A stretch of DNA of 43,322 bases from a virus (IMGVR_UViG_638341087_000022), one strand, 5' to 3'. Positions 1-43,322 are shown, counted from the first letter of the stretch. Numbers and translations are program-made. Notes: a model not told the origin generated them from the letters alone.

Positions 1-1194
1 ATGATCACCGACACAAAGCTCAGGAAGGCGCTCGGCAAGAAAAGAGATGATATCGAGATTATTTCTGATTCGCACGGGCTCAACGCCAGAATCAGCCAGG
101 CCGGAAAAATATCATTTTTCTATCGGTATCGCTGGGCCGGTAAAGCGGTAAAACTCAATGTTGGTGATTATCCTGCAATGAGTATCACCCAGGCAAGAGA
201 GCGTCGCCAACAATTCAGAAACTGGTTAACTGAGGGACTGGATCCGCGAGAGCAGGTGAAGCTGGATAAGCAGACCCGACAGGAAGCGATGTCCGTTGCC
301 GAAGCGTTCAATTACTGGATTGAAAGGCACTGTATCGCTAACGGGCTAGTTAAAGTCGATTACTATCGCCAGGTGTTTGAGAAACATATCGCCGAACCGA
401 TGAAGAATGTCAAAGTCGATAACACAGCGAAAATGCACTGGATCAACGTCTTCGATTCTATAGAAAGCAGGGTGATGGCTCATTACATGCTTTCGCTGTG
501 CAAACGGGCGTTTAGGTTCTGCGTTAACAGAAGTGTGATCGCCTCAAACCCACTCGAGGGATTACTGCCATCTGATGTCGGGCAAAAGCCTAAAAAGAGA
601 ACTCGCAGGATGGACGATGACGATCTGCGCAAAATCTATCAGTGGTTGAAAAGCCATATGTCGATAGAGTCCGTTTTCCTGGTGAAATTTATTATGCTTA
701 CCGGATGCCGTACGGCTGAGATTCGACTTAGTGAGAGATCATGGTTTCGATTGGATGATAATGAGTGGGTCGTGCCTGCGGGCAGTTATAAAACTCGGGT
801 ACATATTAGAAGGGGACTCTCAGACGCCGCCGTTAACCTGGTCAGAAATCACCTCAAGAAAATAAACACCAATCACCTGGTGACTTCACAACGTAAAATT
901 GATGGCGGGATCAAAGATTCGCCCGTTCATTCACCTGTGGCATCCAATTACGCCCGTTCTATTTGGAATGGAACAGGTATGGCAGAGTGGTCGCTTCATG
1001 ATATGAGGCGGACGATAGCCACAAATCTCTCTGAGTTAGGTTGCCCGCCGCACGTAATTGAAAAGCTGCTCGGGCATCAGATGGTGGGGGTTATGGCGCA
1101 TTACAACCTTCATGACTATATCGATGATCAGAAACACTGGCTCCGCGTTTGGCAGAGCCATCTTGAAGAGATCATCGGAGAGCCCTTCAGTTAA
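1..1194 (+). CDS. int: Tyrosine recombinase / integrase, P4-like family (397 aa)
   Basis: ATG at window position 1; N-terminus resembles P4-type integrases; C-terminal HDMRRT...LGH...Y catalytic region typical of tyrosine recombinases. Reads inward, so the attachment site is expected left of the window. Confidence 0.85.
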
Positions 1195-1388
1195 TTTATC
1201 TTCTTTTTATCCTCCCACTCTTTGATTGACTCAGAGCGCCAGCGGTTAGGGTTGCCGGGCCAGTCAGGGGGTGGGAACGGGCATACGAAGCCCCGAGGCA
1301 TTGTGTCTGCACTTTGCCATGACCAAAGGGTTTTGCGTGAAATTTTGTAGCGACTGGTCAGGTCTGACGTTACCAAAATATCATCCAT
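1191..1388 (-). CDS. xis: Excisionase-like winged-helix protein (Xis/AlpA-like, 65 aa from the internal ATG)
   Basis: ORF track 1191..1433; first ATG at 1388 with GGAGAG RBS; segment [25 protein letters not shown] resembles the lambda Xis DNA-binding region; convergent with int, stop codons overlap. Confidence 0.5.
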
Positions 1389-1429
1389 AGCTCTCTCCAG
1401 TTGCCCGTTCGGGCCATTCAAAATCTTTT

Positions 1430-1672
1430 TCAACCAACCTGCCCGGGCAGGGAGCGGAGACGGCGCATGCCGGTCATCGCTGTGGCCACGTAGCTCGCCT
1501 TTCGGTTCACCACCTCCACCCAGACTTTCACGCCTTCAACCTTCACCGTATAAGTCTCTTTCATCTTGCTTCGCCCATAGTCGCCATATGTTTGCAAGTG
1601 AGCTGCCAGCGCGATGTCGCATGCTTGGCGAGCTAAAGGTGATTGCTTACTTCCTCGATTGATCAGTCGCAT
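1430..1672 (-). CDS. Hypothetical early protein (80 aa)
   Basis: ATG at 1672 preceded by AAGGAG RBS; first gene of the leftward operon after recT; no recognised motif. Confidence 0.45.
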   Translation of the reverse strand: MRLINRGSKQSPLARQACDIALAAHLQTYGDYGRSKMKETYTVKVEGVKVWVEVVNRKASYVATAMTGMRRLRSLPGQVG

Positions 1673-1710
1673 ATAATCTCCTTGAGGGAGGGTTACCCCT
1701 CCCGGTCTCG

Positions 1711-2829
1711 TCAGGCCACGTATTCCGGTTTCATATCCGCCAGGGTGATGCTGAATTGATCGTGCAGTTCATCGCCTAAGTGACGCTTTGAAGATGCAAG
1801 CATGCGCTCGGCTTCAGCGAACCGTTCGGCTGCATGCGGCTCGTCGGGCTGGGGCAGGGATTTAATAGCCTCCTCAACCTTGTTGCGTGCATCCACTAGG
1901 TAATAACGCTTTACGGCTTTGTTTTTCAGCTCGGTGAATAGTGCGGATCCCAGCGTAGCTTTCGCCGTTTCAATGTCGGCACGCAGCGATTTGGCGCTAT
2001 CCACGTCCTGAGCAGATTCGATGCGTTCGCGGAAATCATCGGCAAGAGAGTCGACATTTACCGACGATTCCTGTGCGCTTTGCGTGGTTGTGACGGTGTC
2101 ACCTGAGATATCAGCCAGGCTAACGCGTTGCGGCGTTGGGTTGATCTCTTTTTCTGTGCGCTGTTCAATCTCATCAGGGGTGTACACACCAAGAACAACT
2201 GCAGGGCAATATAGGCGCGCCCAGTATTTGAGTGCCAGATAAGCGATCTGCTGTTTCGGGTTTGATACCCAAAGTGGAGAATTACGTGTGATTACGCTGG
2301 AGAGGAAAACAGGCTCTCCCCAGGTGATATCACTTTCACCGCGAATAACGGCACCTACCCGTACCGACAGTCCTTGTTCATCAGCACTTTCCCAACCGCG
2401 TACCATTTCTTTCTTGTCGTACGTCCCGCCACCTTTCGCAGGCTTTTTAACGGTTATCTCGCGGCTGCTGGCACATTTCGACCAGTCGCCCTCGTACTCA
2501 TAGTGAAAGCGGCCAACGATGGCGTTTGAGCTGGAGATCACCGCATTAACCAGTTGCGCTTCGTATCCCAGGACACCGTTAACCAGGTGCGTCTTTTGCG
2601 CCACGGCGTAAGGGTTCATACCCCACTGCATCGCCTGCATGATGATGGCCATGCAGTCTGCCGGATTGCCGCGGAGGTGCTCAGGCACCGTTACGGCTGC
2701 CTGTGCCATCAACCCGGCGACAGACTGAAGCTGGGTTAAAGCCTGCACGTTGAAAATGGCATTGCTGGCTGAGATCGTGTTTGGAGTCTGCTGTTCAGCG
2801 GTTACGATATTCGTGTTTTCCATCATCAT
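1711..2829 (-). CDS. RecT/Redbeta-family single-strand annealing protein (372 aa)
   Basis: Triple ATG start with AAGGGGA RBS; motif QWGMNPYAVAQK parallels lambda Bet QYGLNPWTKE; lies immediately downstream of the RecE-like gene as in Rac/lambda recombination modules. Confidence 0.7.
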   Translation of the reverse strand: MMMENTNIVTAEQQTPNTISASNAIFNVQALTQLQSVAGLMAQAAVTVPEHLRGNPADCMAIIMQAMQWGMNPYAVAQKTHLVNGVLGYEAQLVNAVISSSNAIVGRFHYEYEGDWSKCASSREITVKKPAKGGGTYDKKEMVRGWESADEQGLSVRVGAVIRGESDITWGEPVFLSSVITRNSPLWVSNPKQQIAYLALKYWARLYCPAVVLGVYTPDEIEQRTEKEINPTPQRVSLADISGDTVTTTQSAQESSVNVDSLADDFRERIESAQDVDSAKSLRADIETAKATLGSALFTELKNKAVKRYYLVDARNKVEEAIKSLPQPDEPHAAERFAEAERMLASSKRHLGDELHDQFSITLADMKPEYVA

Positions 2830-2834
2830 TCCCC

Positions 2835-5800
2835 TTATGCCTGAGTACGCAGCGCTTCAAGGCGGCGCAGGTCGAAGTCGTTCAGTTCGTCGGTGTAGTC
2901 AGCAGTGATTGGCGCTGGCCATTCACCTGTGTCGAATCCGGTTGCGATATTGCGCATCGCTTTGCGGTACTCGAGCATACCCAGCTCCAGTAGTTCAGCG
3001 GATGCCTCGATGATGGCGATCCAGTGGTAGTTCTCGTCTTTGTTGACGAAAATCCAGAAGAACTGATCCAGCGCTGCGGTTTCGCAGTACATAGCCGCGC
3101 TCAGGTGATAATCACGTTCAATAATTTCCCGGTGTAGCCTGGCGCGCAGGCTTTCCTGCTTAACATTCCACATGCTGATGGTTTTCAGGTCTGCACCTAT
3201 ACGCACGCCATCCAGGTCGATCTCAAGGTCAGGGCGCACACGAACTTCCAAGCCCGTCTCCTCGTCAAAACCAAAGTAGCTCACCTCAACGGCTCGGCTA
3301 GGGTGGGTCAGCAGCATGCCGGCGGTCGGGTGTGCCAGAAGCGCTTTTTGAATATTCAGCGCGGTGCTCAGCTGCTGGCGGGTGACCAGCACTTTTCCTT
3401 CCGGGTTATCGCGCCAGGCATCCAGCAGTTCGTCGGCAAATACGGCATCTGGTTTGACTGCCTTCACGGCCTGGATCATGTCTGCTTTGGTACCGGACAC
3501 TTTCAGTGGTGCCGGTTTCTGTGCTTCCTGAGCCACAAGGTCAGGGTTGATGATTGCCAACTGCTCCAGCAGCGCGTCACGGCTGCCGCTGGTTTTAACC
3601 GGCGGCGGCAGGGTGGCGTTGTACTCTTTAATGCATGCCTTCATTGCCGTCGCCGTCTGCTTCTGGTCACCATCAATACGCTGGAAGTCAGCTGGCAGCG
3701 CCATATAGGTCTGTGCCGTTTCTTCCAGGTTAGCGCCAAGCGGAACCTGCGGCGGCAGGGTGGCGTTGTACTCTTCCAGTAACACCTTGATGTCGTCGGC
3801 AGACAGCAGCGCCGGCAGGCTGGCATTGTGCTCATCGATAAAGGCGCGCAGGGTCGCGGCCGTTGTGAATGCGCCTTCAGGGATCACCGGTTCAACGCTG
3901 AATTCTGCGTCCAGTAGTTCAGGCTGCAACGCCAGCGCATGCACCAAGTTGCCCATGTCCAGCACCGCTGAGCGCTCTTTGACGATGGTTTTCTCTACGT
4001 GGCGCGCATTGAAGTACATCAGCGAAACGCGCGCATCTTTCACCTGGGTTGAGCTGATGCCGTTGGCGGCGTGGTAAACCTCGTTTGGCAGCCCTTCATA
4101 GCGGCCTGGCTCGAAATAAGCGGGATAAACAACAGCTGGTTCGTCAGATTGCGCTTCTGGCTCGGTTTGTGCTGCAACTGGTTCGGTTTGGCTTACAGAA
4201 TCGCTATTTTTGGCGACAGAATCCGTATTCTGGTTTACATCGTCCTTCTGGCTGGTATCTGACTCTTCACCAGACTCCAGACTGCTTTCGCCTGGCTGTA
4301 CTTCATCACCAGCTTGTTTTTCATCACTGACAGTTTCTTGAACCTGCACATTGCTGGTGGTCTCCGTAGCCTTTTTCGTGCCATGAGTTGCTGAGTTCTG
4401 CAGCAAAGCCGTAACGTCGAATATTCCGTTGCCGACATTTTTAACCAGTTCTTGTTCGACTTTCTGCGGTTGTGCTGCCGCTTCCTCTGCGCGGCGGCGT
4501 GCTCCTTCTTCACGCACGCGTTGCAGGTTCTCTTCGTGAGTGCAGAAGGATTTGCGCGGAGACTCCTTACCTTCAGGTTGGGGAATTTCCTGTGCTGCGG
4601 GTTCAGCCTCATGCAACGGCAATAACTCGACCGCGGAATTGAACGCGGCTGTCATGGTCTGGTTAACAAATTCCAGGTGAGCGACAGGAGTTAAATGAAT
4701 ATTTTCCGGTGCGATACGTACCAGGTTAAAAATAGCCGTGCGGTTAACACCCAGAACGCCTGGCTGATTGCGCAGGATGTTGCTCCATGATTTCCATGGT
4801 TCTTCTTTTTTGGTCACGATTTCTTTAGCGCGACGAAGAATGCTGCCCGGGATCTCGAAGTGGTTGAAGTCCATAGGCAGAAGGGCACACGCAATCTCTA
4901 AATCGAGAGTGTCCAGTGTGTGGTGTGCGTCAGGTCCACGGTCAGTGACGTAACCGCCGTCGGCATTAGTGCCGGAATCAGTACGCTGCACACTACTGAT
5001 GCGATTACCGGCGGCCCATTCGCGAACGAGGATACCGCGGTCGATGTGATCTGTAGCGAACCACAATTTCAAAAACTGGATTAAGGTTGCGAGTTCAGGG
5101 ATTTTTCCATCGACAGGGAAGACTTTCTTAACGGCATTCACGACTTTATGAATATCGTGCTCAATGGCTTTTTTGAATGCTTCCACATTCTCAGCTGCCA
5201 GCAGCAGGTTCTGGACGTACGCGTCATCGGTGTCCATCTCAAGGAGGACAATCTCATTTTTCTGCCCTGCGTCGATGTGATAGAGATATTCACCATCACC
5301 GATGAACTGAGCCAGTACGCGCTGGCGGAATGGCAGGGTGGCAACAACGATCAGGTTCGGTTGCTGTGTCTGCTGGGATTGCTCTTCGGTATCGACTTCA
5401 CCATCAACGACGCCACCTTCTGCCCGGCCGTTCTCGTCGGTCTGGATACCGTCCTCAACAGTGAGATCTTGACCCGTTGTAACGTCAGCAGCGTTGCTGG
5501 TTTCAGTTTTGAGCAACTGCAACTTACCACTGCGCCAGTCTTCTACCAGTTGATTGCGGTCACCGGCATCGGTGTTCACCCAGTCAGACATGAATGCAGC
5601 GATCAATCTTGGTTCGTGCTCTTCGTCTGGTGTGAAAATGTCCTTAACCGCCCGAATCATTTTCCACTCAGCATTCAGGCTGAGTTTGGCGGTCGCGGGC
5701 ACATCGTTCCTTGCCACAAGCAGGCTATGGAGATATGTATTGCCTTCATCCAGTGACATTTCGCTGGCAGCCAACTGCTGCTCTTTAGTGACGTGGGTTT

Positions 5801-6224
5801 GGTATTTATCGTTCATCAGATGGACGGCAAAGCGGACCGCTGGAGTACGGTTTTCAACCGGGACAATTTCGGACGCAGTCGCATCTTCAACGATTACGGT
5901 CGGAGTAGGTGTGTAGGGGGCGTAAACGGAACCAGTAGACACACCAGCGGCTTTTGGCAGCCAGGTGCGCCCATCGTCCTGAAGCTCGTAGCGATCACAC
6001 CAGGTAAAATCAACTTCACCTTCTTTCGGCAGGCCGTCGACAACTGGGAAATCAGTGCGAATCGGTTTGGCGTAGTCCTTACCCCGACCTGTTTCGATAC
6101 CTGCATCTTCCAGCGCAACATCCAGCATCAGATTGGCGCGAGCCTCGGTTTTAGCAGTGAACCAGACCACTGCATCTTGCTTTCCGGATTTCTGAGTGGC
6201 TTTAACCACATTAAAGAATTCCAT
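2835..6224 (-). CDS. recE: RecE-like exodeoxyribonuclease VIII (1129 aa) with internal repeats
   Basis: Very long ORF; C-terminal region resembles the RecE nuclease domain; paired with the annealing-protein gene; contains three EYNA(T/S)LPP-type repeat units. Confidence 0.7.
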   Translation of the reverse strand: MEFFNVVKATQKSGKQDAVVWFTAKTEARANLMLDVALEDAGIETGRGKDYAKPIRTDFPVVDGLPKEGEVDFTWCDRYELQDDGRTWLPKAAGVSTGSVYAPYTPTPTVIVEDATASEIVPVENRTPAVRFAVHLMNDKYQTHVTKEQQLAASEMSLDEGNTYLHSLLVARNDVPATAKLSLNAEWKMIRAVKDIFTPDEEHEPRLIAAFMSDWVNTDAGDRNQLVEDWRSGKLQLLKTETSNAADVTTGQDLTVEDGIQTDENGRAEGGVVDGEVDTEEQSQQTQQPNLIVVATLPFRQRVLAQFIGDGEYLYHIDAGQKNEIVLLEMDTDDAYVQNLLLAAENVEAFKKAIEHDIHKVVNAVKKVFPVDGKIPELATLIQFLKLWFATDHIDRGILVREWAAGNRISSVQRTDSGTNADGGYVTDRGPDAHHTLDTLDLEIACALLPMDFNHFEIPGSILRRAKEIVTKKEEPWKSWSNILRNQPGVLGVNRTAIFNLVRIAPENIHLTPVAHLEFVNQTMTAAFNSAVELLPLHEAEPAAQEIPQPEGKESPRKSFCTHEENLQRVREEGARRRAEEAAAQPQKVEQELVKNVGNGIFDVTALLQNSATHGTKKATETTSNVQVQETVSDEKQAGDEVQPGESSLESGEESDTSQKDDVNQNTDSVAKNSDSVSQTEPVAAQTEPEAQSDEPAVVYPAYFEPGRYEGLPNEVYHAANGISSTQVKDARVSLMYFNARHVEKTIVKERSAVLDMGNLVHALALQPELLDAEFSVEPVIPEGAFTTAATLRAFIDEHNASLPALLSADDIKVLLEEYNATLPPQVPLGANLEETAQTYMALPADFQRIDGDQKQTATAMKACIKEYNATLPPPVKTSGSRDALLEQLAIINPDLVAQEAQKPAPLKVSGTKADMIQAVKAVKPDAVFADELLDAWRDNPEGKVLVTRQQLSTALNIQKALLAHPTAGMLLTHPSRAVEVSYFGFDEETGLEVRVRPDLEIDLDGVRIGADLKTISMWNVKQESLRARLHREIIERDYHLSAAMYCETAALDQFFWIFVNKDENYHWIAIIEASAELLELGMLEYRKAMRNIATGFDTGEWPAPITADYTDELNDFDLRRLEALRTQA

Positions 6225-40538: not shown

Positions 40539-41330
40539 ATGCTCCGAATCGGGCAAGTCGAAGCCACTGCAACGCAGGATGGCAAATATACTGATGGAAG
40601 TGTTGCTGGTGGTATTGCCGCAACGAGGCTGCGGGCAGCAGCGTTTAATGCCATGCAGGAAGAGTTAGCGCATATCGTAGAGTCAGCAGGATTGGCGCTC
40701 GACATTAACGATATGACTCAGGTTTTAAAAGCCATTCAAAAACTCACACTGAGCCGTGCAAACCCATTTGCCGATATCAAATCAGATGGTGCAGCGGCGA
40801 TTTCTACGGCTCTCACAAACCTTGGTTTGGGAGAAGGTTCAGCATTACCTGTTGGTGCACCTGTTCCGTGGCCTTCAGAGACACCTCCAACAGGCTGGCT
40901 GAAATGCAACGGAGCAGCTTTTTCTGCTGAAGAATACCCGGAACTGGCAAAGGCTTACCCGACAAATAAATTGCCTGATTTACGTGGTGAGTTTATTCGT
41001 GGCTGGGATGATTCTAGAGGGATTGATACGGGGCGTTCATTGCTAAGTGGTCAGGCTGCAACATTTATTCGTACAGCTTTGCAGGATTATTACGGTTACG
41101 ATCTGAATACTAATGTCAAAGTAGGTATCGCTTTTGCTACTGCTGATTCTGTTATAACTGTTGGAAACCCAGCTAATCCTAAAGCAGGAAATAATAGCGA
41201 TTATGTTCCTGCATCAGCAGATAACTCCATAACGGGTACTCAAAGGACAGCGGAGGATAATTTTACCGGGGCATGGATATCAATGCGCCCTCGTAACCTT
41301 TCATTTAATTACATCGTGAGGGCTGCATAA
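40539..41330 (+). CDS. Tail fibre protein: constant N-terminus (about 95 aa) joined to an invertible C-terminal segment
   Basis: GTGAGGA RBS; a recombination-site-like dyad lies inside the coding sequence at the NLGLG codons. Confidence 0.7.
   Translation: MLRIGQVEATATQDGKYTDGSVAGGIAATRLRAAAFNAMQEELAHIVESAGLALDINDMTQVLKAIQKLTLSRANPFADIKSDGAAAISTALTNLGLGEGSALPVGAPVPWPSETPPTGWLKCNGAAFSAEEYPELAKAYPTNKLPDLRGEFIRGWDDSRGIDTGRSLLSGQAATFIRTALQDYYGYDLNTNVKVGIAFATADSVITVGNPANPKAGNNSDYVPASADNSITGTQRTAEDNFTGAWISMRPRNLSFNYIVRAA
40811..40836. promoter_or_regulatory. Left inversion site (hix/gix-like)
   Basis: CACAAACC-TT-GGTTTGGGAGAA has dyad symmetry and shares the half-site TTGGTTTGGG with the inverted right site. 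Confidence 0.45.
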
Positions 41331-41932
41331 TGGATAATGCCGTATTAAATAGCGAGCTTATTGCCACGAAGGCGGGGGATATTACTGTCTATAATTATAA
41401 TGGTGAAACACGAGAATATATTTCCACATCAACTGAATATCTTGCTGTTGGTGTCGGTATTCCGGCATGTTCCTGTTTAGATGCACCAGGAACATATAAA
41501 GCTGGTTATGCCATCTGCCGCTCTGCGGATTTAAACTCATGGGAATATGTGCCAGACCATCGCGGAGAAATCGTCTATAACACCGAAACGGGAGACGCCA
41601 AAGAAATCACAACTCCGGGTGATTACCCCGAAAATACAACCACTATCGCCCAGTTAACGCCATACGATAAATGGGATGGTGAGAAATGGGTGACCGATAC
41701 TGAGGCACAGCATTGCGCCGCAGTAGACGCGGCAGAAGCACAGCGCCAGTCACTGATTGATGCAGCAATGGCTTCCATTAGTCTGATTCAGCTGAAATTA
41801 CAGGCCGGGCGGAAACTGACGCAGGCAGAAACAACCCGGCTTAACGCTGTGCTGGATTACATTGACGCGGTGACGGCAACAGATACCAGCACCGCGCCGG
41901 ATGTCATCTGGCCTGAACTGCCGGAGGCGTAG
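41330..41932 (+). CDS. Tail fibre assembly protein (Tfa)
   Basis: Conserved C-terminus LDYIDAV...TSTAPDVIWPELPEA; directly follows the tail fibre gene. Confidence 0.75.
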   Translation: MDNAVLNSELIATKAGDITVYNYNGETREYISTSTEYLAVGVGIPACSCLDAPGTYKAGYAICRSADLNSWEYVPDHRGEIVYNTETGDAKEITTPGDYPENTTTIAQLTPYDKWDGEKWVTDTEAQHCAAVDAAEAQRQSLIDAAMASISLIQLKLQAGRKLTQAETTRLNAVLDYIDAVTATDTSTAPDVIWPELPEA

Positions 41933-42374
41933 GCCATTCAATATCTGGCGTACCGGAAGTATCGACCATTTCCAGTGCGTCCAGGTAATCCAGCCACGCG
42001 TTATACTGTACCTTTTCGGCGTCTTTCAGCCGTCCCATTGCAGCTTTTCCCGGCCATTGCTTGCTGTTCATGTACTCGTTAGCCTGGTCGATTAGCAGCT
42101 GTTTTTGTGCTTCAGCTGCTGCAACAAGTTGATCGTGCGTTGGCGGCGGAATATCACCCCAGGCAGGAAAACCATCTTCACCAGCAATGCGGATTTTCCC
42201 TTTCGGTGGTTTGCCTGAATACTCAACAAATAGTTCTTCATCAACCTCCTTAGCATTGTCAAAATTCATTCCATTTGATTCATAAATTTCCTTCATAGCT
42301 ATCGGACAGAAAGCATTTGTAGATACATCATAAAAATATTTATTCATTCTAATTATCTCCCGATAGCAATCCAT
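41904..42374 (-). CDS. Alternative tail fibre assembly protein (Tfa') on the inverted side
   Basis: C-terminus WLDYLDALEMVDTSGTPDIEWPTPP parallels Tfa; convergent with and overlapping the Tfa 3' end. Confidence 0.7.
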   Translation of the reverse strand: MDCYREIIRMNKYFYDVSTNAFCPIAMKEIYESNGMNFDNAKEVDEELFVEYSGKPPKGKIRIAGEDGFPAWGDIPPPTHDQLVAAAEAQKQLLIDQANEYMNSKQWPGKAAMGRLKDAEKVQYNAWLDYLDALEMVDTSGTPDIEWPTPPAVQAR

Positions 42375-42721
42375 CTCGCGTAGGCGAAATTCGCGTTGCC
42401 TAATGAGTTTAACAGTCTAAAAGAACTGGTGGTGTTAGCTTTTGCGGCAAAGTGAACCGGTCCGTTAGGCGCGTCAGGATTGTCATACGTGGCAACAATC
42501 TGGATAGAGCCTAAATCCGTAAACGCTATCGGGAACGGATTTGTCTGAACTTCACCAACCTGACCTGATAACGCAGTACCCCACTGAATTATTACGCCAC
42601 TGGGCAGGCGCTGCCACCCTGAACCGCTTGAAAAGCTGGTCATGTCAGGGATTTGTCCAGCACCTGTACCCACATTTTTTGTTGCTGCTGTACCCAAACC
42701 AACCTTTTTTATAACCATCAA
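42353..42721 (-). CDS. Alternative tail fibre C-terminal segment (no own start expected; fused to the constant part after inversion)
   Basis: Begins at the right inversion site with ...KKVGLGTAATKNVGTGAG, matching the NLGLGEG junction of the expressed fibre; the track start is TTG. Confidence 0.6.
   Translation of the reverse strand: MMVIKKVGLGTAATKNVGTGAGQIPDMTSFSSGSGWQRLPSGVIIQWGTALSGQVGEVQTNPFPIAFTDLGSIQIVATYDNPDAPNGPVHFAAKANTTSSFRLLNSLGNANFAYARWIAIGR
42689..42714. promoter_or_regulatory. Right inversion site (hix/gix-like), inverted relative to the left site
   Basis: Reverse complement reads AAAAAAGG-TT-GGTTTGGGTA, sharing TTGGTTTGGG with the left site. Confidence 0.4.
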
Positions 42722-42743
42722 AAATCTGGTGATGCTTCGCCGT

Positions 42744-42768
42744 TTCTCCTGTTTTCATAACAGGAGAA
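42744..42768 (+). promoter_or_regulatory. Perfect 10-bp-stem hairpin covering the invertase RBS
   Basis: TTCTCCTGTT-TTCAT-AACAGGAGAA; the AGGAGA Shine-Dalgarno of the invertase lies in the 3' arm. Confidence 0.4.
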
Positions 42769-42773
42769 ATCCC

Positions 42774-43322
42774 ATGATTTACGGTTATGCCCGAGTATCA
42801 ACAAACCACCAGGACACTGAATTGCAACTAACGGCGCTCAAGTCAGCGGGTTGTGAGAAAATTTTTGAAGAGCATGCCAGCGGGAGGAAATCGAATCGGC
42901 CGGTTCTAAAACGGCTGATCGCCACTATGCAGCCGGGGGATGAACTGGTGGTCTGGAAGCTGGACAGGATAGGCCGCAACGTTCTGCATGCGCTGTTGAT
43001 GTTCCAGCAGTTACAGGAAAAGGGTATCAACTTCCGCAGTATTACCGATGGCGTGGATCTCAAAACAGCCAGCGGCCGCTATAACTTTCGTAACATCCTT
43101 TCCGCAGCACAATATGAATCTGATCTTAATAGCGAACGTACCTTAGCAGGGCTGGCCGTAGCCAGGGCAAAAGGGCGAGTTGGTGGTCGCAGGCCTAAGT
43201 TCACGGATGAGCAATGGCGGGAAATGGGGGAGCGGATGGCAACCGGTGAATCACGACAAAGCGTATCAAAAACGTATGGAGTAGGGCTCTCAACTCTGTA
43301 TAAAAAGTTTCCAGCTAGCTGA
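42774..43322 (+). CDS. Serine DNA invertase, Hin/Gin/Pin family (182 aa)
   Basis: N-terminus MIYGYARVSTNHQD with the catalytic Ser context; C-terminal HTH; true start is the internal ATG of track ORF 42642..43322. Confidence 0.85.
   Translation: MIYGYARVSTNHQDTELQLTALKSAGCEKIFEEHASGRKSNRPVLKRLIATMQPGDELVVWKLDRIGRNVLHALLMFQQLQEKGINFRSITDGVDLKTASGRYNFRNILSAAQYESDLNSERTLAGLAVARAKGRVGGRRPKFTDEQWREMGERMATGESRQSVSKTYGVGLSTLYKKFPAS

What the first reader, a model, noticed from the sequence alone, without database searches (positions are those of the whole stretch)
40811..43322. Invertible tail-fibre host-range switch with asymmetric hix-like sites
Seen: a segment of about 1.9 kb contains convergent Tfa and Tfa' genes and a start-less alternative fibre C-terminus on the minus strand, next to a Hin/Gin-family invertase. 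The left site lies inside the fibre gene at the NLGLG codons (CACAAACC-TT-GGTTTGGG). The right site, inverted, shares only the TTGGTTTGGG half. Established: this is the Mu G-segment / e14 P-segment logic and matches how hixL and hixR share one half-site. The constant fibre part is unusually short (about 95 aa).
Basis: partly seen in the sequence, partly recalled or inferred. Interest (0 to 1): 0.5.

Follow-up and report, generated by a model that had tools for sequence, protein, structure and literature searches.

The report
Invertible phage tail-fibre switch (e14/PinL type)
This is a real but ordinary DNA-flipping switch that lets an E. coli prophage alternate between two tail-fibre tips, and it is a close relative of the long-known e14 P-segment and of the phi80 pinL invertase.

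Summary
A 1,881-bp segment (40822-42702) carries a collar-type fibre end plus Tfa on the + strand. On the - strand it carries Tfa' plus a gp53-like fibre end. A 182-aa Hin/Gin-family invertase lies next to it.

The left site is a near-palindromic 26-bp hix-like site inside the NLGLG codons. The right site sits at a family-fixed position 85 bp before the invertase ATG and shares only TTGGTTTGGG with the left site. That 10-mer occurs exactly twice in 43 kb, in inverted orientation.

In-silico inversion gives an in-frame 210-aa fibre. A metagenome contig carries this same junction with the same rare module.

The window is the E. coli E22 prophage at the phi80 attachment site (yciI). Its invertase is 99.5% identical to phi80 PinL, and the gene order is that of e14 (ymfQ-stf-tfa-tfa'-stf'-pin). 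Among 85 related loci both orientations are common, with breakpoints exactly at the site cores.

This is therefore a new member of a known kind. The 94-aa constant part is normal for e14-type fibres. The "start-less" end has an in-frame ATG.

This copy's right inner half-site is a rare variant, and its activity is untested. One side lead is that PinL-clade invertases lack several hallmarks of Fis dependence.

The parts
40539..40823 (+). Constant N-terminal part of the tail fibre (94 aa, up to the crossover core)
   Evidence: ORF. It is 48% identical over 87 aa to the e14 StfP N-terminus, ending in the same NLGLG motif. It is 100% identical over its last 100 nt to many E. coli prophages.
40810..40835 (+). 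Left recombination site, CTCTCACAAACC TT GGTTTGGGAGAA (core TT at 40822-40823)
   Evidence: It matches the palindromic hix-like pattern TCNNAAACCWWGGTTTNNGA with 0 mismatches. It contains the published e14 inverted repeat TTGGTTTGGGAGAAGG (PMC12529663). Homology to HK97, P2-like and other fibre modules begins here.
40822..42702 (.). Invertible segment, 1,881 bp from core to core
   Evidence: In-silico inversion keeps the reading frame. Relatives show the homologous segment inverted exactly core to core.
40824..41330 (+). Expressed variable fibre end with phage tail collar domain (StfE-like)
   Evidence: Pfam Collar PF07484, E = 1.5e-15. 59% identical to e14 StfE. The same module sits inverted next to the invertase in L038 (92.5% identity, ending at the right-site core) and in 20 E. 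coli genomes.
41330..41932 (+). Tfa, tail fibre assembly chaperone for the collar-type end
   Evidence: Caudo_TAP PF02413, E = 1.8e-31. 90.5% identical to e14 TfaE.
41904..42347 (-). Tfa', chaperone for the alternative end; convergent with Tfa and overlapping it by 29 nt
   Evidence: Caudo_TAP, E = 1.3e-29. 69% identical to e14 TfaP over 78 aa.
42353..42700 (-). Silent alternative fibre end, gp53-like C-terminal domain (StfP-like). The ORF continues to an in-frame ATG at 42716-42718.
   Evidence: Pfam Gp53-like_C PF21882, E = 1.3e-13. No close relative in complete E. coli genomes; the best is 71.6%. It is found fused in frame at an e14-type left site in metagenome contig PPYF01298480.1, 96.5% identical over 778 bp.
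42689..42714 (+). Right recombination site, TGTACCCAAACC AA CCTTTTTTATAA (core AA at 42701-42702)
   Evidence: It starts at the family-fixed position 85 bp before the invertase ATG. The outer half is conserved across the family. The inner half differs at 3 of 12 positions from the family consensus TTCTCCCAAACC and is unique among the 85 loci.
42742..42770 (+). 12-bp stem-loop that includes the invertase Shine-Dalgarno sequence (AGGAG)
   Evidence: 11-nt perfect inverted repeat (I17). RNA fold of the region -27.3 kcal/mol, z = -5.05. The same element is annotated IR3 in the phi80 record.
42774..43322 (+). DNA invertase, 182 aa, phi80 PinL type
   Evidence: Resolvase + HTH_7. Gap-free alignment to Gin, E = 1.4e-56. 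55% identical to e14 PinE. 99.5% identical to phi80 PinL and 100% to the mEp237 invertase. The exact protein is seen on at least 1000 contigs, named as E. coli where a name is given.
42796..42858 (+). Position equivalent to the Gin/Pin recombinational enhancer (two Fis sites 48 bp apart)
   Evidence: gin and pinE match the 7-position Fis consensus 7/7 at both sites. The window matches 6/7 and 6/7 and loses the flanking G/T of site II. There is no excess synonymous conservation here across the clade.

Best explanation
This is a Pin-type site-specific inversion switch for the tail-fibre tip of a temperate myovirus-tailed prophage of E. coli E22, integrated at the phi80 attachment site.

How it works:
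- The late operon reads through a 94-aa constant fibre N-terminus into whichever variable end is joined to it at the left site.
- In the orientation sequenced, that end is a collar-domain tip followed by its chaperone Tfa.
- The serine invertase (PinL type) binds the two 26-bp sites, cuts at the 2-bp cores (TT and AA), and rotates and rejoins the DNA. This flips 1,881 bp.
- The constant part is then fused in frame to a gp53-like tip (a 210-aa fibre) followed by its own chaperone Tfa'.
- A lysogen population would therefore release particles with two receptor specificities.

Shown: the anatomy, the homology, the in-frame junction, a natural example of that junction, and both orientations among relatives.

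Inferred: that this copy inverts, at what rate, and that the two tips bind different receptors.
For: - Domain content and gene order.
- Colinearity with the e14 P region, whose inversion is experimentally established (PMC4272514, PMC12529663).
- The sites: the 10-mer occurs only twice, inverted; the left site is a perfect match to the hix-like pattern; the right site lies at a fixed distance from the invertase in 85 loci.
- In-silico inversion gives an in-frame 210-aa fibre.
- Contig PPYF01298480.1 carries ...ALENLGLG|TAATKNVGTGAGQIPDM..., that is, this rare module joined at exactly the predicted core.
- Orientation in relatives: 14 loci have the collar end at the left site with gp53-like at the right, and 9 have the reverse. 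Twenty module pairs are inverted with breakpoints at the cores. These include two whole segments, L004/L028 (1,849 bp, 97.4%) and L031/L035 (1,871 bp, 94.5%), in prophages encoding the identical invertase.
- The invertase has the RVST serine and a full-length gap-free alignment to Gin.
Against: - No direct evidence that this copy inverts. Its exact fibre protein was found on only two contigs, both in the same orientation where readable.
- The predicted inverted fusion protein is absent from a 15-billion-protein collection.
- The right site is weak on both halves. It has 4 mismatches to the 16 specified positions of the hix-like pattern (read by hand; no match within 3 mismatches). Its inner half, GGTTTGGGTACA, is unique among the 85 loci.
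- Orientation differences among relatives could in principle be produced by other Pin enzymes acting in trans, as PinQ and PinR do on e14 (PMC12529663).
- In L097 the module sits in a decayed element with a deleted invertase, so that example shows the junction, not ongoing switching.
Confidence: 0.8

Rival explanations
1. The switch is homologous to e14's but frozen in this copy. The alternative module arrived by horizontal exchange with a diverged inner half-site (TGTACC instead of TTCTCC). The right site now has two poor half-sites and is no longer a usable substrate, so the collar orientation is effectively fixed.
For: - The inner half is unique among 85 loci, and the shared repeat drops from 15-16 bp in relatives to 10 bp.
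- Only one orientation of this exact variant is on record.
- Decayed switches are common in the family: phi80 and mEp237 keep pinL beside fragments, L032 has stop codons in both ends, and L097 has a deleted invertase.
Against: - The core-proximal 8 bp (CCCAAACC) and the core are intact.
- Positions 10-12, which changed here, also vary in the outer half of left sites of relatives that show whole-segment inversion: TTACCACAAACC in L031 against TTCTCACATACC in L035.
- Related 'GLG-T' inner halves occur at both left and right positions (L018, L068, L069, L077).
- The same module is fused at a left site in L097.
- All ORFs in the segment and the invertase are intact.
Confidence: 0.22
2. In the lysogen the invertase-proximal ORF (121 aa, MVIKKVGLG plus the gp53-like domain) is expressed on its own. 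It acts like e14 StfE2, a small receptor-masking protein that blocks adsorption of other phages. On this reading the inversion also toggles a host-defence function. This does not exclude the host-range switch.
For: - An in-frame ATG lies just outside the right site, and the ORF is annotated as a gene in the source record.
- e14 StfE2 has the same build: a short leader from the pin side plus the gp53-like end. It is reported to block T2 adsorption (PMC12529663).
Against: - No Shine-Dalgarno sequence lies within range of that ATG (read).
- Only a chance-level promoter match points that way.
- In the sister subfamily with outer half CCTTTCAAATAT, an in-frame TGA closes the leader (read), so the ATG is not a conserved feature.
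- The StfE2 effects were obtained largely by plasmid expression.
Confidence: 0.1
3. There is no inversion system. The two TTGGTTTGGG copies are just the codons of a conserved fibre motif (LGLG) in two independently acquired fibre ends, and the junction is only a hot spot for homologous module exchange.
For: - The LGLG(T/E)AA motif and its codons recur in unrelated phage fibre genes.
- Homology to HK97 and P2-type fibres starts at this point.
Against: - An intact Hin-family invertase lies adjacent.
- The right site starts a fixed 85 bp before the ATG across the family.
- The second end is on the opposite strand, with its own chaperone and no N-terminus.
- Whole-segment inversions among relatives end exactly at the cores.
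- Inversion is demonstrated experimentally for the homologous e14 segment (PMC4272514).
Confidence: 0.03

Closest known systems
e14 P segment with pinE (E. coli K-12: ymfQ-stfP-tfaP-tfaE-stfE'-pinE)
   Same: - Same gene order and domain types.
- Same crossover inside the NLGLG codons. The left site contains the e14 repeat TTGGTTTGGGAGAAGG in full.
- The right site is asymmetric in both, and lies about 70 bp before the invertase start (72 here, 68 in e14).
- The constant fibre part is equally short (94 against about 96 aa).
- Tfa is 90.5% identical to TfaE (PMC12529663).
   Different: - The segment is 1,881 bp, against 1,797 bp.
- The sequenced orientation is the opposite of the K-12 reference: collar end expressed, gp53-like end silent.
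- The invertase is only 55% identical to PinE.
- The right site shares 10 rather than 16 bp with the left.
- The host element is an apparently complete 43-kb prophage, not a 15-kb remnant.
phi80 pinL (also in mEp237 and HK225)
   Same: - The invertase is 99.5-100% identical.
- Same position at the prophage end next to attP/yciI-tonB (PMC5727415).
- Same upstream hairpin, annotated IR3 in phi80.
- Same type of right site before the gene.
   Different: - In phi80 and mEp237 the invertible region is decayed to fragments: a collar-domain pseudogene and a single 'complex' fibre gene.
- Those phages have lambda-like J-type tails.
- Here both cassettes and both chaperones are intact and sit behind a Mu-like baseplate.
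Mu G segment with Gin
   Same: - Gene logic gp47-gp48-Sc/Sv-U-U'-S'v-invertase.
- The right site lies 67 bp before the invertase gene.
- The invertase aligns gap-free with Gin.
   Different: - The G segment is about 3.06 kb and the constant part is 170 aa.
- gixL and gixR are a perfect 34-bp inverted repeat with a TC/GA core, so both half-sites are shared.
- gin carries two 7/7 Fis sites. The window has 6/7 and 6/7.
Salmonella Hin/hix flagellar switch
   Same: - 26-bp sites with 12-bp half-sites around a 2-bp core.
- By my recollection hixL and hixR share one half-site and differ in the other, as here. This is unverified in the held papers.
   Different: - Hin inverts a promoter, not coding cassettes.
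- Hin is Fis/enhancer dependent and has the helix-E motif FFFH and the Fis-contact residues Q151/R154/L155. The window's enzyme lacks these (PMC3798978, PMC4513852).

Membership tests
Hin/Gin/Cin/Pin DNA invertases (small serine recombinases) | Resolvase catalytic domain plus C-terminal HTH_7, about 180-195 aa | tested here: met
   PF00239 E = 3.6e-39 and PF02796 E = 1.5e-9; 182 aa.
Hin/Gin/Cin/Pin DNA invertases (small serine recombinases) | Colinear similarity to a solved invertase, with the catalytic serine in the N-terminal RVST motif and the conserved WKLDRxGR and ERT motifs | tested here: met
   Gin structures 3uj3 and 4m6f, E = 1e-56 and 3.5e-55, residues 1-181 aligned without gaps. All three motifs are present.
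Hin/Gin/Cin/Pin DNA invertases (small serine recombinases) | Two 26-bp sites in inverted orientation, each with two 12-bp half-sites around a 2-bp core | tested here: met
   The left site matches the pattern perfectly. The right site has the correct core (AA against TT) and a good core-proximal inner half, but 4 of 16 specified positions mismatch. This asymmetry is conserved in the family.
Hin/Gin/Cin/Pin DNA invertases (small serine recombinases) | Recombinational enhancer: two Fis sites 48 bp apart inside the 5' end of the invertase gene | tested here: inconclusive
   At the positions where gin and pinE score 7/7 and 7/7 on the (G/T)NNYRNN(A/T)NNYRNN(C/A) consensus, the window scores 6/7 and 6/7. 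Clade members score 4-7 at site II. There is no extra synonymous conservation in codons 7-30. The consensus is degenerate, so binding cannot be excluded.
Hin/Gin/Cin/Pin DNA invertases (small serine recombinases) | Residues proposed to contact Fis and said to be uniquely conserved among Fis-dependent invertases (Hin Q151, R154, L155) | tested here: not met
   Gin and PinE have Q/R/L. The window has E/E/R, and the positions vary within the clade (EER, QAL, QRL, EKM and others) (PMC3798978).
Hin/Gin/Cin/Pin DNA invertases (small serine recombinases) | Helix-E regulatory motif F-F-F-H (Hin 104-107) with Met109 | tested here: not met
   The window and all 33 distinct clade proteins have Y-N-F-R ... 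I (one has K for N), within an otherwise invariant YNFRNILSAAQY. In Hin, F105N gives faster and partly Fis-independent inversion (PMC4513852).
Hin/Gin/Cin/Pin DNA invertases (small serine recombinases) | Catalyses inversion of the adjacent segment | not testable with these tools
   Indirect only: both orientations, with core-exact breakpoints, among prophages encoding the identical protein.
e14 P-segment type tail-fibre switch | Gene order gp48/YmfQ - constant fibre part - variable end - tfa - tfa' (reverse) - second variable end (reverse) - pin | tested here: met
   compared with the K-12 annotation.
e14 P-segment type tail-fibre switch | Crossover in the NLGLG codons, with the inverted repeat TTGGTTTGGGAGAAGG at both ends | tested here: met
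   The left end has 16 of 16. The right end has only the first 10 contiguous bases (repeat sequence from PMC12529663). Close relatives such as ES8 keep 15.
e14 P-segment type tail-fibre switch | Both orientations give an in-frame complete fibre gene | tested here: met
   263 aa as sequenced and 210 aa after in-silico inversion. The same junction occurs naturally in L097.
Mu G segment | Long perfect inverted repeats (34 bp) forming identical gix sites | tested here: not met
   Mu: 34-bp perfect repeat. Window: 10 bp.
Shufflon (multiple-inversion system, Rci tyrosine recombinase) | More than two sites, and a tyrosine recombinase | tested here: not met
   There are only two copies of the site core in the window, and the recombinase is a serine enzyme.

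The most novel reading that the evidence does not exclude
The PinL clade is the invertase of this prophage, of phi80, mEp237 and HK225, and of prophages on at least 1000 contigs. It may be a natural Hin-family lineage whose activation does not depend on the classical Fis/enhancer mechanism, or depends on it in a different way.

Support:
- It carries Asn at the position where Hin F105N is hyperactive and partly Fis-independent.
- It has Arg and Tyr at the positions of Hin H107 and M115.
- It lacks the Q151/R154/L155 Fis-contact triad.
- It shows neither a conserved pair of consensus Fis sites nor synonymous constraint where gin and pinE have their enhancer.

The strong Shine-Dalgarno-sequestering hairpin in front of the gene could be the compensating brake.
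Probability: 0.3. Interest if true: 0.5.

Novelty: new member of a known kind. Interest (0 to 1): 0.25.

Why it matters
As a host-range switch it adds nothing conceptually new. Inversion of tail-fibre cassettes by Hin-family invertases has been known since Mu G, P1 C and e14 P, and genome-wide surveys list it as a common target (PMC9881135).

Its practical value is threefold:
- **An intact, complete example.** It is an intact example of the e14/phi80 pinL system. The textbook e14 and phi80 copies are remnants. This one sits in an apparently complete prophage and could serve to study what the two tips recognise.
- **A survey of site variation.** The survey of 85 loci shows a large interchangeable repertoire of fibre tips that all join at one 2-bp core. 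It shows how much the inner half-site can vary.
- **A testable question about regulation.** The PinL clade lacks several sequence hallmarks tied to Fis dependence in Hin. Whether these invertases need Fis is a concrete, testable question about serine-invertase regulation.

Tried and rejected
- **Exact 20-mer of the right inner junction.** In genome contigs it gave only two chance hits, in a Bacteroidota and a cyanobacterial MAG. In viral contigs it gave six hits that are merely the conserved LGLGTAA fibre motif in unrelated phages. Neither helped.
- **Predicted 210-aa inverted fusion protein.** An exact look-up found nothing in the collection. With only two contigs carrying this variant, that result carries little weight.
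- **Home-made Fis score scanned along the genes.** It was too noisy to locate enhancers de novo. I replaced it with a position-matched comparison against gin and pinE.
- **Plain inverted-repeat search.** It did not rank the true sites, which shows that repeat length alone would miss this switch.
- **Checking hixL/hixR sequences and the critical Hin contact positions in papers.** This failed. PMC125850 and PMC4384473 are not held, and the held Hin papers do not print the sites.
- **Promoter and terminator scan.** The results were at chance level.
- **Shufflon-type multi-site system.** Rejected: only two sites and a serine recombinase.
- **Artefact of prophage-boundary trimming.** Rejected: the source contig continues into yciI/tonB.
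Full report
**1. What is in the sequence**

- The fibre gene runs 40539-41330 (+) and encodes 263 aa.
- It is followed by a 200-aa ORF at 41330-41932 (+).
- A convergent 147-aa ORF lies at 41904-42347 (-).
- A further minus-strand ORF ends at 42353 and runs up to the right site.
- A 182-aa ORF lies at 42774-43322 (+), and its stop codon is the last base of the window.

Pfam assigns these as follows.
- The fibre gene has Collar (PF07484) at aa 106-153.
- Both small ORFs are Caudo_TAP.
- The minus-strand end is Gp53-like_C (PF21882).
- The last ORF is Resolvase + HTH_7.
- The two genes upstream are Baseplate_J and Mu Gp48 (YmfQ-like).

**2. The two sites**

- The left site is CTCTCACAAACC TT GGTTTGGGAGAA (40810-40835). 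It matches the palindromic hix-like pattern TCNNAAACCWWGGTTTNNGA without mismatch. Its core TT lies in the Leu codon of NLGLG.
- The right site is TGTACCCAAACC AA CCTTTTTTATAA (42689-42714).
- The two sites share only TTGGTTTGGG. That 10-mer occurs exactly twice in the 43,322 bases, on opposite strands. The expectation is 0.11, and 0 of 100 shuffles reached two copies.
- As a bare inverted repeat it would not stand out.
- Inverting 40822-42702 in silico joins the 94-aa constant part in frame to the gp53-like end. The result is a 210-aa fibre...ALTNLGLG|TAATKNVGTGAGQIPDM....

**3. What it is related to**

*e14.*
- The locus is colinear with the e14 region of E. coli K-12: ymfQ, stfP, tfaP, tfaE (reverse), stfE' (reverse), pinE.
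- e14's sites are CTCTCGAAAACC TT GGTTTGGGAGAA and TTCTCCCAAACC AA CGTTTATGAAAA.
- The published e14 repeat TTGGTTTGGGAGAAGG (PMC12529663) is present in full at the window's left site.
- The constant parts are 48% identical and end at the same motif.
- Tfa is 90.5% identical to TfaE. The collar end is 59% identical to StfE. The silent end and Tfa' resemble StfP and TfaP.
- The window is therefore in the orientation opposite to the K-12 reference.
- Inversion of the e14 P segment is experimentally established (PMC4272514; PMC12529663, citing Plasterk and van de Putte 1985).

*Source and phi80.*
- The source is E. coli E22, contig AAJV02000021.1. The invertase gene there is followed by yciI and tonB.
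- That is the phi80 attachment locus (PMC5727415).
- The invertase is 99.5% identical to phi80 PinL and 100% identical to the mEp237 enzyme.
- phi80 and mEp237 keep pinL next to attP but have only fragments of the cassettes.
- The window's prophage combines an integrase, RecT and a RecE-like gene, lambda-type head genes and a Mu-like contractile tail. Both of its cassettes are intact.

**4. Does the family actually switch?**

I collected 80 IMG/VR loci with this invertase and four E. coli chromosomal loci.
- The right site starts at a fixed position, 85 bp before the ATG. Its outer half (CCTTTTTTATAA or CCTTTCAAATAT) is nearly invariant. Its inner half is TTCTCCCAAACC in most loci.
- Fourteen loci have a collar end at the left site and a gp53-like end at the right. 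Nine have the reverse.
- Twenty pairs of loci share a module in opposite orientation, with alignments that stop exactly at a core. Two of these are whole segments: L004/L028 (1,849 bp, 97.4%) and L031/L035 (1,871 bp, 94.5%). They occur in prophages encoding the identical invertase.
- The window's own collar module lies inverted against the right core in L038 (92.5%).
- A synthetic 'collar end next to invertase' junction is matched end to end in 20 complete E. coli genomes.
- This is strong comparative evidence that the system inverts in nature.

**5. Is this particular copy active?**

This is where the window is unusual.
- Its right inner half reads TGTACCCAAACC. That is three changes from the consensus, and it is unique among the 85 loci. 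The shared repeat is 10 bp instead of the 15-16 bp of close relatives such as strain ES8.
- The reason is that the silent cassette is a rare one. Its best match in 5,426 complete E. coli genomes is 71.6%.
- The fibre protein is on record from only two contigs. The predicted inverted fusion protein is not in the 15-billion-protein collection.
- A scan of metagenome contigs for the predicted recombinant junction found one hit, PPYF01298480.1. There the same cassette (96.5% over 778 bp) is joined in frame at an e14-type left site, CTCTCGAAAACC TT GGTTTGGGTACA. So the predicted fusion exists, and this cassette has been on both sides of such a switch.
- In that element the second cassette is replaced by an unrelated 330-aa ORF with no fibre-like sequence. 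The invertase has an internal deletion and the right site is broken. It is not evidence of current switching.
- Positions 10-12 of the half-site, the ones changed here, also vary in the outer half of left sites of relatives that show whole-segment inversion. The core-proximal 8 bp are intact.
- I put the chance that this copy still inverts at a measurable rate at roughly 0.7.
- One consequence follows by inference. As sequenced, the left site has two good halves and the right has two poor ones. After inversion each site would have one of each, so the two directions may not be equally fast.

**6.

- The constant part (94 aa) is typical of e14-type fibres, not unusual. Mu's is 170 aa.
- The silent end has an in-frame ATG five codons outside the core (42716-42718). 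This gives a 121-aa ORF that the source record annotates. It has no Shine-Dalgarno sequence. In the sister subfamily an in-frame TGA closes that leader, so 'start-less' is functionally fair.
- Its build equals that of e14 StfE2, which has been reported to block T2 adsorption (PMC12529663). I keep that as a low-probability extra function.
- Mu's gix sites are a perfect 34-bp repeat. The asymmetry therefore resembles e14, and by my recollection hixR, rather than Mu.

**7. A side lead on the invertase**

The enzyme aligns with Gin over 181 residues without a gap and keeps the catalytic motifs. It departs from Hin, Gin and PinE at several points.
- Helix E reads YNFRNILSAAQY instead of FFFHVMGALAEM. 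This motif is conserved in all 33 distinct clade proteins, which range from 79% to 100% identity (one has K for N).
- The residue matching Hin F105 is Asn. In Hin, F105N inverts faster than wild type, works partly without Fis, and induces SOS (PMC4513852).
- The residues matching Hin Q151, R154 and L155 are described as uniquely conserved among Fis-dependent invertases (PMC3798978). Here they are E, E and R, and they vary within the clade.
- Where gin and pinE each have two 7/7 matches to the Fis consensus 48 bp apart (background frequency of a 7/7 match 0.7%), the window has 6/7 and 6/7. Clade members drop to 4/7 at the second site.
- Synonymous divergence in codons 7-30 is no lower than elsewhere in the gene.
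- Three to five loci (L067, L072-L075) are chimeras with a gin-like N-terminus, including both 7/7 sites.
- A 12-bp stem-loop includes the Shine-Dalgarno sequence of the gene (fold z = -5.05). It is annotated IR3 in phi80.
- None of this proves Fis independence. The Fis consensus is degenerate, and I found no functional study of PinL. It is a concrete hypothesis.

**8. Verdict**

- The finding is real and correctly interpreted.
- It is a new, intact member of the e14 P-segment / phi80 pinL kind of tail-fibre inversion switch.
- Interest is low to moderate.
- The unusual points are the rare silent cassette with its weakened right site, and the non-canonical regulatory residues of the PinL clade.

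Noticed in passing
window 42742-42770: A 12-bp stem-loop (11-nt perfect inverted repeat, 5-nt loop) whose 3' arm contains the invertase Shine-Dalgarno sequence AGGAG, 4 nt before the ATG. The fold of the region has z = -5.05. The same element is annotated as repeat IR3 in the phi80 record. It is probably a translational brake on the invertase.
   Followed up: partly
window 42353-42718 (-): An in-frame ATG just outside the right site gives a 121-aa ORF (MVIKKVGLG plus the gp53-like domain), which is annotated as a gene in the E22 record. It has the same build as e14 StfE2, reported to block phage T2 adsorption (PMC12529663). No Shine-Dalgarno sequence precedes it.
   Followed up: partly
window 42774-43322; loci L014-L093: The PinL-clade invertases share the helix-E motif YNFRNILSAAQY (Asn at the Hin F105 position; one of 33 has K for N). 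They lack the Q/R/L Fis-contact triad and have weakened, unconstrained Fis-site positions.
   Followed up: partly
L067, L072-L075 (IMG/VR loci): Chimeric invertase genes. They have a gin-like N-terminus (MQIGYVRVSTND), including both 7/7 Fis-consensus sites, joined to the PinL-type core. Their upstream region is different and lacks the usual right site.
   Followed up: no
L097 (metagenome contig PPYF01298480.1): An e14-like element in which the window's rare gp53-like cassette is fixed at the left site. The second cassette is replaced by a 330-aa ORF with no fibre-like sequence (family not searched). The PinL-type invertase has an internal deletion of about 60 residues. This looks like a locked derivative.
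   Followed up: partly
window 41842-41868 / 41977-42003, and 41904-41932: A 27-nt imperfect inverted repeat (81%) reflects the homologous C-termini of the convergent Tfa and Tfa' genes, whose 3' ends overlap by 29 nt. It is a possible substrate for homologous rearrangement inside the segment.
   Followed up: no
window 40809 onward: Nucleotide homology to the HK97 stf/tfa genes (92%) and to P2-like, Klebsiella and Salmonella phage fibre modules begins within a few bases of the left site. The crossover site is therefore also the junction for horizontal exchange of fibre tips.
   Followed up: partly
window 1-6224: An integrase (1-1194), RecT (1711-2829, -) and a 1129-aa RecE/exonuclease VIII-like protein (2835-6224, -). 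The window begins at the integrase start and ends at the invertase stop, as expected for a prophage at the phi80 att site in yciI. The heads are lambda-type (gpA terminase, lambda portal, capsid E) and the tail is Mu-like and contractile.
   Followed up: partly
L032 (IMG/VR locus): Both fibre ends at the two sites contain stop codons and frameshifts although the invertase is intact. This is another decayed copy in the family.
   Followed up: no
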